A DNA stretch of 64,000 nucleotides. Origin: a candidate division FCPU426 bacterium (GTDB lineage Bacteria > Oederibacteriota > Muellerivitia > Muellerivitales > Muellerivitaceae). This document shows positions 57,250 through 60,410 of this stretch, one piece after another. The stretch spans positions 800,001 to 864,000 of the forward strand of contig CAVRAL010000004.1 in assembly GCA_963719085.1 (NCBI GenBank), in the 5' to 3' direction. A model generated the notes under the pieces. It was not told the origin of the DNA and searched no databases. It saw nothing but the letters and a program-made list of their open reading frames with translations. How positions within the stretch are numbered: position 1 is the first letter of the stretch; every line of letters begins with the position of its first letter. The position numbers and the translations under genes are program-made.

Positions 57250-57585
57250 ATGAAAACCATTGGATTACTGTTTCTGTCGAATATCTTCATGACTTTCGCC
57301 TGGTACGGCCACTTAAAGACCCTTAGGGACAAGCCCTTGATGGTGGCGGTCTTGGTCAGTTGGGGGATCGCTTTTTTTGAGTACCTACTCCAAGTGCCCG
57401 CCAACCGCATTGGGTATGGAACCTTTTCCCTCGCCCAACTCAAGATCATCCAAGAGATCATCACCATGGTGGTTTTCGCCGGATTCGCCGTGCTTTATAT
57501 GAAAAAGACCTTCAACGCGGATTTTCTTTACGCGGGTCTTTGCATGGTCGGCGCGGCTTATTTTATTTTTAGGCAAACAGAGTAG
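57250..57585 (+). CDS. Small DMT-superfamily protein (DUF486-type)
   Basis: SNIFMTFAWYGHLK, SWGIAFFEY..QVPANRIG and QLKIIQE. Confidence 0.93.
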   Translation: MKTIGLLFLSNIFMTFAWYGHLKTLRDKPLMVAVLVSWGIAFFEYLLQVPANRIGYGTFSLAQLKIIQEIITMVVFAGFAVLYMKKTFNADFLYAGLCMVGAAYFIFRQTE

Positions 57586-57807
57586 TCCAGTTACGAAAAA
57601 AAGCCGCTTAACGGACTGGGCAAACGAAGTAGTCCAGCCACCAAGCAAGTCTTTAACAAAAGCTGGGCAAACGGAGTAGTCCAGTTACGAAAGAAAGCCG
57701 CTTAACGGACTGGGCAAACGCAGTAGTCCAGCCACCAAGCAAGTCTTTAATAAAAGCTGGGCAAACGGAGTAGTCCGGTTACAAAAGGATTATTTAGTCA
57801 AAGCTGG
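57572..57807. repeat. 47-bp-period array: 22-bp core CTGGGCAAACGNAGTAGTCCRG with 25-nt spacers in the order A-B-A'-B'-C
   Basis: Cores at 57572 (partial), 57616, 57663, 57710 and 57757, then a terminal CTGG at 57804. Confidence 0.93.
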
Positions 57808-58040
57808 AGATGCGGGCGCGTCGGCGGGGCAGTAGCTTGCCTCCAATCCTCAGAGGATGGGGAGTAAATCATTTAACCGAAAAATGATTTTATAAAGAAC
57901 CCGTTTAATTGTTAAAAGTAACCTACGTGAAACTTGCTTAAAAAAAATGAAAAGGGATGATATCGGCCAGCACTAACTTCTCATTTTGATAGGCCAAAAT
58001 GATAGGCCCCATGAGAAGACAGCCCTGAAAGGCTGGCCCC

Positions 58041-58937
58041 ATGAACCGATCCATCTTTGTGCTTTTGTTAATGGCTTTCGCCGCCATGCCCCTGGCTTGT
58101 GACTGCGGCAAGATGGATCCCACGGACCCGACCGGCAATAGCGGCACCCTCACCGCCCCCGCGACCACTTCCGGCACTGTGACGCCGCTTCCGACGTCGA
58201 CTGAAACCAATACGCCCACCATCACCCAAACGCCGACGGCCACCACCACGCTCACCCCCGAACCGACCCACACCTTCACCGCCACGATGACCTTCACTAA
58301 AACTTCAACTCCGACAGTCACCTGGACCTACACGCCCTCCAACACGCCCACAATTACGCCAACGGTCACTCCGACCTTTACGCCCACGACTACCCCGACC
58401 AAGACACCAACCTTAACGCCCACTTCAACGCCGACGAGCACACCCACCACTACCCCGACAGCTTGCGCGAACACGACTCCCGTTGGGAATATGACCAACA
58501 ACGCCCAAGTTGGAAGTATTCCGGCAAATCACATTACGCTAATGGAAGTAGCTGTTGCCGGAAGTGGATTGGCGCAGGTGTTGGATGTGAAATTCGGGGT
58601 TCAAACAGCTGCTTCGCCCAATCCTCAAGTTTATGTTGGGATTTATGGGGACAGCGGTGGTTCGCCATCAACACTAGTTGCGAGTAGTGACCTCAGCTCT
58701 TATGGAACCGGAATCAATACTGTTTCATTTTCTCCCCGGGTCTATTTGGCGCCTGGGAATTATTGGATCGGTCTTTCGCCTACGGCAAGTATTCCCGATT
58801 TGCTTTTCTTAAGCACGAATCCGGGGCCATCGGTCGCTTATTCAACCGGGGCCGGACCCACTTTACCGTCTACCCTTGCGACCCCGACTGGCTCGGTTCC
58901 GGATGCGATGCAAATTTGGTTGGAATATTGTCAGTAG
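58041..58937 (+). CDS. Lipoprotein with a Thr/Pro-rich stalk and a C-terminal beta-rich domain
   Basis: Lipobox PLAC; about 105 aa of TPT repeats; GIYGDSGGSP...L.PGNYWIG. Confidence 0.85.
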   Translation: MNRSIFVLLLMAFAAMPLACDCGKMDPTDPTGNSGTLTAPATTSGTVTPLPTSTETNTPTITQTPTATTTLTPEPTHTFTATMTFTKTSTPTVTWTYTPSNTPTITPTVTPTFTPTTTPTKTPTLTPTSTPTSTPTTTPTACANTTPVGNMTNNAQVGSIPANHITLMEVAVAGSGLAQVLDVKFGVQTAASPNPQVYVGIYGDSGGSPSTLVASSDLSSYGTGINTVSFSPRVYLAPGNYWIGLSPTASIPDLLFLSTNPGPSVAYSTGAGPTLPSTLATPTGSVPDAMQIWLEYCQ

Positions 58938-58940
58938 AGA

Positions 58941-60410
58941 TTAGTTAAAGCGGTAGGAAGCGGCGATGTGGGTTCGGTATAAATCACCGTAAGCACTTGG
59001 ATCATTCACGACCGAAGGCTGATCCCACGAGACGCCCAAGTCCAAACTTAAATTTTTATCCTGATAACCGATGCCAGCTAGGATGGTCGTGCTGATGATT
59101 TCCTGTCCCGGATGGACGGGAAAATAAAAATCGTCCTCGTCCACGGTGCCCGTGTTGTTTTGGTCCTCGACAATGACCCCCATGCGAAAAGCCCAGCTTT
59201 TAGACAGGTTTCGTTCTCCGCCGATTGATATTTTGTAGTCGAAATAATTGTTGTTCGCGGTGACAGCGGAAGAGTTGCTTTGAGTTCCCGTGACTCCGGA
59301 TAATGCGGCTTGGACACCAAGGGTAAAATCTTGCGGAGCTTCCACGCCTAGCCCCAAGATGCCTGTCCAGCCTGTCACATTAAAGCCCCCATTAGGATTT
59401 TCAGTTGAATCAAATGTATTCTCAGTTTGATTCTCAATCGTGAAATCACCGCCAGTTTTTAAATTGATTCCGGTCGAAAGAGGGCTTGTCATCTTAAAGA
59501 CCGCGGTGCCCTCGGAAATGTTCTCGTTGCCAAGGTTAAAATTGGCGACATTGGGTATCGAAGTGGCATCAGTGGAGTCTTGATGAAATCCCAGGTTCCA
59601 GGTGACAAAGCGTCCAGTTAATCCAGCCTCGAATTTCCCCGGGCTGTCAAAGTAGATTTCAGGACCCCAAAGTAAAAGATTGTTGGTTGTAATTGTTTGA
59701 GTCACGGTGAAATTAGTCGAAAGTAAACTGTTGAAAGCTTGTAAGTTTTTTATTTCATCGAATTGGCCCAACTGTGTCCCCGCGATTCCCCCGATTCGAA
59801 GATGATCTTGATTCGGGTTCGACGCCCCTAGCAAGTTGATCAACAGGCCGCCGGTTCCTTCTAAGTTGTTATTGGTGCCGCTACCGGAAGTGATTTGATT
59901 GTTCACATTAAACTGATAGGGGCTGATGGTTAGGTTGGTTTGCTCAGGTTGAATTTCGGCGCCCAAGGTGAAGATGCCGAAGTTATAGGCCATTCGGCCC
60001 AATTCGCGGGTGCGGTCATTGGTGGCGATATGATCTCCCGAGTCGTTTTGGCCTTCAGTGTGCAAGGTGTCCCCGTCGGCTTGTAGGGCCCAGTTGGGGT
60101 TTAAAAAAGCAATAAGCCCGTGGTACTTCGTCACGTCATCGTTGAATTGACTCATGCTTCCATAAATGTGGAAAAGACCGTCCGAGGGGGAAGCGTCTTT
60201 GGCCCATTCGGCGGCCGCGTCAAAACGGGTTTGGGGAGTTAACAACGCGAGACCCGCGGGGTTTCCCAAGGTGAAGGGGTTAACCGCGACCGACTCGTCC
60301 GTGATAACAAGGGAAAGGTCACCGGTCGAATCGACCCGTGTGTCGGAGGCGTGGCTGGGGCTTTGGGAAAGAAGGAGTATGGAAATTGCCCAAAGCAGAG
60401 CTTTTTTCAT
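58941..60410 (-). CDS. Putative outer-membrane beta-barrel protein
   Basis: Signal peptide SHA|, GNPAGL, alternating beta-strand patterns and C-terminal ASYRFN. Confidence 0.72.
   Translation of the reverse strand: MKKALLWAISILLLSQSPSHASDTRVDSTGDLSLVITDESVAVNPFTLGNPAGLALLTPQTRFDAAAEWAKDASPSDGLFHIYGSMSQFNDDVTKYHGLIAFLNPNWALQADGDTLHTEGQNDSGDHIATNDRTRELGRMAYNFGIFTLGAEIQPEQTNLTISPYQFNVNNQITSGSGTNNNLEGTGGLLINLLGASNPNQDHLRIGGIAGTQLGQFDEIKNLQAFNSLLSTNFTVTQTITTNNLLLWGPEIYFDSPGKFEAGLTGRFVTWNLGFHQDSTDATSIPNVANFNLGNENISEGTAVFKMTSPLSTGINLKTGGDFTIENQTENTFDSTENPNGGFNVTGWTGILGLGVEAPQDFTLGVQAALSGVTGTQSNSSAVTANNNYFDYKISIGGERNLSKSWAFRMGVIVEDQNNTGTVDEDDFYFPVHPGQEIISTTILAGIGYQDKNLSLDLGVSWDQPSVVNDPSAYGDLYRTHIAASYRFN

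What the first reader, a model, noticed from the sequence alone, without database searches (positions are those of the whole stretch)
57572..57807. Cas-less 47-bp-period repeat-spacer array starting in the stop codon of a DMT gene
Seen: five 22-bp cores at exact 47-bp spacing, each able to form a hairpin (CTGGGC/GTCCAG). The 25-nt spacers run A-B-A'-B'-C, with A/A' and B/B' each differing by 1 nt and B/C sharing 14 of 25. An alternative stem closes each spacer with covarying ends (CCAGT..ACTGG, CCAGC..GCTGG, CCGGT..GCTGG). The first core encodes the gene's RQTE-stop. The period is not a multiple of 3, so the array is non-coding. ACGGA occurs four times. A lower-GC stretch of surface-protein genes follows. 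Inference, unranked: a processed small-RNA or guide array, a CsrA-sponge-like RNA, iterated protein-binding sites, or stacked integration scars.
Basis: partly seen in the sequence, partly recalled or inferred. Interest (0 to 1): 0.72.

Follow-up and report, generated by a model that had tools for sequence, protein, structure and literature searches.

The report
Stacked hairpin inserts inside transporter gene
Five 47-base DNA units, each predicted to fold into one hairpin, sit in a row inside the last codons of a small membrane-protein gene of an uncultured soil bacterium and are missing in its relatives; they are likely tiny selfish inserts rather than a CRISPR-like guide array, but no other copy or responsible enzyme was found.

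Summary
The array is real: 5 x 47 bp at 57572-57806, a 22-bp core at least 20/22 alike, 25-nt middles in order A-B-A'-B'-C. New: it does not follow the DMT gene, it lies inside it. Removing exactly 235 bp restores the frame to a stop at 57833-57835 with a tail as long as in relatives, which lack the array; there is no target duplication. The natural unit is a 10-nt linker plus one stem-loop with GTAG at its foot, five complete times. No other copy was found in this genome, 98 phylum genomes, or the GTDB, metagenome, viral, phage and plasmid collections. The genome has no Cas1, CsrA, IS110/Nop, RT or Y1 transposase; the middles match nothing above chance. Best reading (0.5): stacked, non-autonomous PATE/REP-like hairpin units of three types, one pair later duplicated; mobiliser unknown. 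CRISPR, TIGR, CsrB and type III antitoxin fail defining tests. Transcription untested. The scan had not noted this sequence elsewhere, but noted other stacked hairpin units at gene ends in this genome. Interest 0.33.

The parts
57250..57585 (+). DMT_6 (DUF486) small membrane protein gene, 111 aa; its last three residues and stop now come from unit 1 of the insert
   Evidence: (PF04342, E 1.7e-45)
57572..57806 (+). the insertion, exactly 5 x 47 = 235 bp (equally 57573-57807; one G is ambiguous), no target duplication, 46.8% GC
57572..57618 (+). unit 1, type A; stem arms 57585-57591 and 57615-57621; middle 57591-57615
57619..57665 (+). unit 2, type B; middle 57638-57662
57666..57712 (+). unit 3, type A'; middle 57685-57709; units 3-4 repeat units 1-2 at 96% (94-bp period)
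57713..57759 (+). unit 4, type B'; middle 57732-57756
57760..57806 (+). unit 5, type C; middle 57779-57803; its stem changes all keep pairing except the outermost pair
57807..57835 (+). displaced original 3' end of the DMT gene (eight codons and a stop at 57833-57835 once the insert is taken out)
   Evidence: same tail length as relatives' contigs
57836..57861 (+). further 26-32 bp hairpin-forming stretch absent in relatives X4, X6, X7, X9; unique in the genome; possibly a second small insert
58041..58937 (+). Thr/Pro-rich lipoprotein-like gene, syntenic in relatives that lack the array (context, not part of the insert)

Best explanation
The array is a lineage-specific insertion of five complete 47-bp single-hairpin units inside the last codons of the DMT gene, without target duplication, and is likely a stack of non-autonomous selfish mini-elements (PATE/REP-like) moved as single-stranded DNA by an HUH-type enzyme supplied from elsewhere. 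Shown: exact unit-multiple insertion, empty site in relatives, displaced gene tail, conserved ends with variable loop. Inferred: three already-diverged family members (A, B, C) entered one after another at the same T-rich site, which such insertion leaves intact; the A-B pair was then copied once in tandem (4 differences in 94 bp); the conserved core is the joined right and left ends plus the stem that the enzyme would recognise, and the loop is free to vary. The array persists because unit 1 supplies an in-frame stop and the lost tail is variable among relatives. No host function is needed.
For: Empty site: same-genus G001, contigs of X4, X6, X7 (joint 57572 to 57862 with 22 other letters), X5 (68 other letters) and X9 (loose end) all run from the DMT gene to the downstream region without the array. 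Excising 235 bp gives a 116-aa frame whose tail after the conserved F-R has eight residues and a stop, as in X4/X6/X7 and X9; against X9 it agrees at 20 of 27 bases counted by eye (binomial p 4e-5 at an assumed 35% background). All five loop-closing stems are complete, whereas the core hairpin is missing in unit 1 and there is no sixth core, so the unit is linker + hairpin, not repeat + spacer. GTAG stands directly 5' of each stem, as in GTAG-type REPs (PMC3733652 section 5; PMC8266576 passages). PATEs lack inverted ends and target duplications, can be as short as 52 bp and mobile, and can be heterogeneous with conserved terminal oligonucleotides (PMC3119063 passages). Y1 transposases are present in 22 of 30 other family genomes. 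The genome is rich in selfish hairpin repeat families and has other stacked units at gene ends.
Against: A mobile family should have other copies: none in this genome, none in 30 family genomes at up to 2 mismatches, none in 98 phylum genomes by pattern or covariance model, only isolated single chance matches in GTDB (25 of 25 loci), metagenomes (5 of 5) and viruses. No Y1 transposase in G000 or G001 and no unit-like sequence beside 20 Y1 loci of the family. Each unit has one hairpin, not two terminal ones, with a long weakly paired loop; head-to-tail arrangement is rare among GTAG REPs (PMC3733652). The exact 25-nt loop length in three unlike types is not explained by selfish mobility alone. 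The gene tail itself diverges fast (about 14 of 27 bases alike with the X4 type, by eye), so some in-place divergence cannot be excluded. X4, X6 and X7 give identical letters and count as one lineage; X9 is one 151-nt contig of depth 3.
Confidence: 0.5

Rival explanations
1. In-place tandem repeat: one 47-bp piece was inserted once, amplified by slippage or unequal exchange, and selection (for stems that stabilise or pause the DMT transcript) or repeated homogenisation kept the core while loops drifted.
For: Exact unit multiples follow from tandem amplification; the 94-bp doubling is plain; B and C loops are related (p 0.001); the genome has other unique non-coding tandem repeats of 44-46 bp.
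Against: A/B and A/C loops are no more alike than shuffles (p 0.26, 0.19) while cores are 20-21/22; the other 44-46-bp repeats are 85-99% alike along the unit; the array is younger than the split from relatives with 8 differences in 115 coding bases; no indel in any loop.
Confidence: 0.2
2. A captured piece of a functional array from an unsampled mobile element: a transcript cut in the linkers into 47-nt stem-loop RNAs whose 23-25-nt loops act as guides or protein ligands, now orphaned.
For: Constant loop length, conserved linker and stem, A+T richer than the host contig (46.8% vs 54.3%), stem changes that keep pairing.
Against: A random capture would end on unit boundaries only about 2 times in 47; no effector gene nearby; no targets; no Rfam match (best E 7); covariation not significant; no homologous array anywhere searched.
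Confidence: 0.15
3. Iterated binding or recombination sites: the 22-bp core is an imperfect palindrome centred on a variable dinucleotide, spaced 47 bp (about 4.5 helical turns, from general knowledge) for a dimeric DNA-binding protein.
For: Six-base inverted ends and a central variable pair in cores 2-5; five tyrosine recombinases in the genome.
Against: The motif has no other occurrence at up to 5 mismatches and the half-site palindrome with 10-nt spacing is not enriched; it sits inside a gene end and is absent in relatives; the array ends are cut at hairpin-unit, not core, boundaries.
Confidence: 0.08
4. A remnant of a known RNA array system: orphan or off-target CRISPR array, TIGR array, type III antitoxin, or CsrB-like sponge.
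For: Period within the CptI/TenpI range (PMC3401426 Table 2); core starts with TG and ends with CCA like TIGR repeats (PMC12045711 passages); four ACGGA.
Against: No repeat-length target duplication and no closing repeat; no Cas1, Nop, IS110, CsrA; no inner box C/D pair with 9-nt spacers; no terminator and toxin gene downstream.
Confidence: 0.07

Closest known systems
PATEs, transposase-free derivatives of IS200/IS605 elements (described for Haloquadratum walsbyi, PMC3119063, passages read)
   Same: Very short, no inverted ends, no target duplication, hairpin, present in one lineage and absent at the same site in relatives, heterogeneous interior with conserved termini; a 52-bp mobile PATE is reported.
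   Different: One hairpin instead of two near-terminal ones; no parent IS or Y1 transposase found; single locus; five units stacked head to tail with constant length.
GTAG-tagged REPs and their clusters, with TnpA-REP/RAYT (PMC3733652 section 5 and passages; PMC8266576 passages)
   Same: GTAG at the 5' foot of a short imperfect stem with G-T pairs, 39-nt body, variable loops, tandem reiteration of a pair, overlap with a stop codon.
   Different: Five copies at one site rather than tens to hundreds genome-wide; all head to tail; long weakly paired loop; no RAYT; junctions do not fall at a CT site if the relatives' codon is taken as ancestral.
CRISPR arrays and off-target Cas1-Cas2 insertions (general knowledge; lead from earlier scan notes)
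   Same: Constant period, conserved block alternating with variable block.
   Different: No closing repeat, no duplication of native sequence, repeated and related middles, no Cas1, no targets.
TIGR arrays (PMC12045711, bioRxiv 10.64898/2026.09.09.750476; passages read)
   Same: Conserved block begins with TG and ends with CCA; five units; stem-loop units.
   Different: One 25-nt middle without inner C/D motifs and 9-nt dual spacers; no adjacent Nop-domain gene.
Type III antitoxin repeats ToxI/CptI/TenpI (PMC3401426, passages read)
   Same: Tandem non-coding repeats of 40-57 nt, A-rich segments.
   Different: No terminator and toxin gene downstream, no clear pseudoknot, lies inside a gene end.

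Membership tests
PATE / IS200-IS605 derivative | no terminal inverted repeats and no target duplication | tested here: met
   excision of 235 bp leaves an intact frame with only one ambiguous base; empty sites
PATE / IS200-IS605 derivative | palindromes near both ends related to those of an IS605-type element | tested here: not met
   one stem per unit; no match beside 20 Y1 loci of the family, best E 1.9; only 20 of the listed Y1 loci were examined
PATE / IS200-IS605 derivative | copies at several sites, or a Y1 transposase available | tested here: not met
   single locus; PF01797 absent in G000 though present in 22 of 30 family genomes
GTAG-type REP | GTAG at the 5' foot of a 5-13 bp stem | tested here: met
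   5 of 5 units
GTAG-type REP | high copy number across the genome | tested here: not met
   GTAG is followed by hairpins no more often than control tetramers (4.8% vs 4.8-5.1%)
GTAG-type REP | cognate RAYT/TnpA-REP flanked by the repeat | tested here: not met
CRISPR array | n+1 repeats around n unique spacers; repeat duplicated at each acquisition | tested here: not met
   5 cores, 5 middles, no closing core; A and B recur; relatives' empty site lacks the core
CRISPR array | Cas1 in the genome | tested here: not met
   0 matches, genome 99% complete, control rang in 7 of 14
CRISPR array | spacers match mobile elements or self | tested here: inconclusive
   no hit in phages, plasmids or viral contigs; self best scores 16, 14, 13 vs 12-15 for six shuffles each; most real spacers also lack hits
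TIGR array | [quoted passage not shown] | tested here: not met
   read from the alignment against the definition
TIGR array | adjacent Nop-domain Tas gene | tested here: not met
   neighbours are DMT_6, a hydrolase and a lipoprotein-like ORF; PF02371 and PF01798 absent; the authors' custom Tas profile was not available
Type III antitoxin | repeats followed by a terminator and a toxin gene | tested here: not met
   the ToxN search had a silent control and is not counted
Type III antitoxin | conserved H-type pseudoknot per repeat | tested here: inconclusive
   many short crossing helices listed, no control run, output partly cut
CsrB/RsmZ-type sponge | CsrA in the host and GGA in most hairpin loops | tested here: not met
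   no PF02599 (control rang in 3 of 14); GGA in 2 of 5 core loops
any processed RNA array | transcription and cleavage into unit-length RNAs | not testable with these tools
   no RNA run was listed

The most novel reading that the evidence does not exclude
An undescribed cassette-acquisition system: an unknown enzyme adds fixed-length 47-nt cassettes, with constant ends and a stem that displays a variable 25-nt loop, one after another at a single site and without duplicating the target, so the array is a memory or guide array built on a principle different from CRISPR, TIGR and integrons.
Probability: 0.07. Interest if true: 0.8.

Novelty: new variant of a known kind. Interest (0 to 1): 0.33.

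Why it matters
If the best reading holds, it is among the shortest mobile-looking units on record (47 bp, one hairpin) and shows that serial insertion at a reusable site can build a Cas-less array that mimics repeat-spacer geometry; that is a useful caution for array-mining pipelines and a small handle on how such arrays begin. With one locus, no second copy and no enzyme it is not yet a testable system. It would matter much more if the units proved to be acquired cassettes or processed RNAs.

Tried and rejected
Rfam scan: only RT-2 at E 7, rejected. Genome-wide core, BLAST, nhmmer and periodicity scans: array only. Relatives by BLAST: 31 of 60 other genomes match, all within the DMT gene only. 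Exact core in GTDB: 25 loci, one match each; three had a loose second match 174-1397 nt away, none in register. Metagenomes: 5 single matches. Viral scans: 0, 1, 39 single matches; the best by covariance model (27 bits) lies inside a 215-aa ORF. Two-core viral scan: 73 loci, 86 of 94 matches with triplet periods (low-complexity repeats); one giant-virus record has dispersed 43-46-nt tandem hairpin units sharing the searched motif, best p 0.006 in 27 comparisons, not significant after correction. Covariance-model hits in 9 of 98 phylum genomes were isolated, mostly coding, chance matches. A 46-bp repeat elsewhere in the genome is not significantly like the unit (p 0.15-0.89). A 17-nt near-complement between middle B and the downstream gene is within the chance range. 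Assembly artefact: junctions are present in public contigs; the uncovered centre and the empty X3 lay prove nothing. RT and IS110 origin: families absent. A search of an unrelated phylum was not run (one search returned an error), so diverged cores outside this phylum are covered only by exact-pattern scans. Literature searches listed no paper on this sequence or arrangement; they were keyword searches of open papers only, and no supplements were read (REP family consensus figures were not visible).

Full report
Observation. The window holds five units at 57572, 57619, 57666, 57713 and 57760, exactly 47 bp apart, with a 94-bp higher-order repeat at 96%. The 22 core positions are 20-21/22 alike in every pair; the 25 middle positions are 24/25 for A/A' and B/B', 14-15/25 for B/C and 8-9/25 for A/B and A/C. 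A test that does not fix the boundary shows the matches are clustered (p 0.0002-0.001 in four pairs, 0.034 in the fifth). By alignment against shuffles only B and C are related (p 0.001); A/B and A/C are not. All + frames contain stops. Public contigs carry both junctions, though they may come from the source sample and none covers the centre.

What the unit is. The alternative stem closes all five middles: 34 of 35 cells pair, with one pair changed on both sides and two on one side. With five related rows this is not significant (146 of 500 shuffles), and the array as a whole folds no better than shuffles. Still, counting complete structures, the array is five linker-plus-hairpin units, each with GTAG directly 5' of the stem, and not repeats bracketing spacers: there is no closing sixth core.

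Where it sits. The upstream gene is DMT_6. The same-genus genome G001 has the same gene order and no array. Contigs of four further runs join the gene end straight to position 57862 (X4, X5; X6, X7), and X9 shows another array-free tail; X4, X6 and X7 have identical letters and count once. Taking out exactly 235 bp restores a 116-aa frame ending at 57833-57835. After the conserved F-R this tail has eight residues and a stop, as in the X4 type and X9 (G001 has six); it agrees with X9 at 20 of 27 bases, counted by eye (p 4e-5 at an assumed 35% background), and with the X4 type at about 14 of 27; against G001 the tail alignment is not significant. So the array is an insertion inside the arginine codon, with one ambiguous G and no target duplication, and unit 1 supplies the new stop. 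A further 26-32 bp hairpin stretch follows the displaced stop and is also missing in relatives.

Search for kin. Nothing else in the genome matches at up to 5 mismatches or by profile, and the array joins none of the 73 intergenic repeat clusters found by self-comparison. None of 30 family genomes has the core at up to 2 mismatches. In 98 other phylum genomes a looser stem pattern occurs at control levels and the covariance model gives isolated weak hits in 9, all chance-like on inspection. GTDB, metagenome and viral scans gave single matches only; phage and plasmid BLAST gave E 0.9 or worse. These scans are exact-pattern or sampled, so a family with a diverged core could be missed. The middles have no self target above shuffles and no exact viral match. 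Earlier scan notes hold no look-alike of this sequence.

Enzymes. G000 (99% complete) has no Cas1, CsrA, Y1 transposase, IS110 transposase, RVT_1 or Nop match, with working controls; the ToxN control was silent. It has 5 GIY-YIG, 4 PDDEXK_3 and 5 tyrosine-recombinase matches, none near the array. Y1 transposases occur in 22 of 30 other family genomes, not in G001; 20 of their loci show no unit-like flank.

Mechanism. Shown: an exact five-unit insertion without duplication, three loop types under one set of ends, and a later doubling of the A-B pair. Inferred: units with conserved ends, one hairpin, a tetranucleotide at its foot and no target duplication are what single-strand HUH transposition acts on, and because it leaves the target intact it can stack elements at one site (general knowledge of IS200/IS605; guide and cleavage rules in PMC8266576 passages). 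PMC3119063 (passages) reports transposase-free PATEs without inverted ends or duplications, one only 52 bp long and apparently mobile. The genome carries many hairpin repeat families and other stacked units at gene ends (following notes e1-7782726 and e1-7782776), unrelated in sequence to this one. I put this at 0.5. Against it stand the lack of any second site or enzyme and the constant loop length. In-place amplification with a protected stem (0.2), capture of a functional RNA array (0.15), iterated binding sites (0.08) and remnants of CRISPR, TIGR, type III antitoxin or CsrB (0.07 together) are the rivals.

Comparison and membership. It works like a PATE or GTAG-REP cluster but is not filed in either: no parent element, no second palindrome, no high copy number, no RAYT (PMC3733652 section 5 and passages). 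It fails CRISPR (no closing repeat, no duplication, no Cas1), TIGR (no dual spacers, no Tas; PMC12045711 and bioRxiv 10.64898/2026.09.09.750476, passages), type III antitoxin (no terminator and toxin; PMC3401426, passages) and CsrB (no CsrA). Other papers were seen as search listings only; none describes this sequence, within the limits of five keyword searches of open papers.

Verdict. New variant of a known kind, interest 0.33; a 0.07 chance that it records an undescribed cassette-acquisition system, which would merit 0.8. Transcription and strain variation are untested.

Noticed in passing
window 57836-57861: Extra 26-32 bp stretch with a short hairpin between the displaced DMT stop and the sequence shared with relatives, flanked by a 7-of-9 direct repeat; unique in the genome. 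Possibly a second small insertion.
   Followed up: partly
G000 C4:949479-949760, C4:1066095-1066196, C4:81886-81991: Three other unique non-coding tandem repeats with periods of 45, 46 and 44 bp (6.3, 2.2, 2.4 copies), hairpin-like by eye; the 46-bp one lies just upstream of an ORF that looks like a Y-family polymerase by eye.
   Followed up: partly
L055, L059, L069, L070, L077, L078, L085 (one giant-virus genome record): Dispersed clusters of 43-46-nt tandem hairpin units that share an 11-base motif with the array's linker; similarity outside the searched motif is borderline.
   Followed up: partly
window 57647-57663 and 58061-58077: Middle B is complementary over about 15 of 17 bases to the early codons of the downstream lipoprotein-like gene; within the genome-wide chance range.
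   Followed up: partly
G000 C4:1004600-1046400: Stacked 66-68-bp two-hairpin units at the stops of several genes, same architecture as this array but unrelated sequence.
   Followed up: partly
whole genome G000: Large dispersed palindromic repeat families (one cluster of 427 tiles, others of 27, 18, 12, 10) and four PDDEXK_3 and five GIY-YIG matches, yet no Y1, IS110, RT or Cas1 gene.
   Followed up: no
window 58041-58937 and 58941-60410: A Thr/Pro-rich lipoprotein-like ORF and a 489-aa outer-membrane-like ORF without Pfam match.
   Followed up: no
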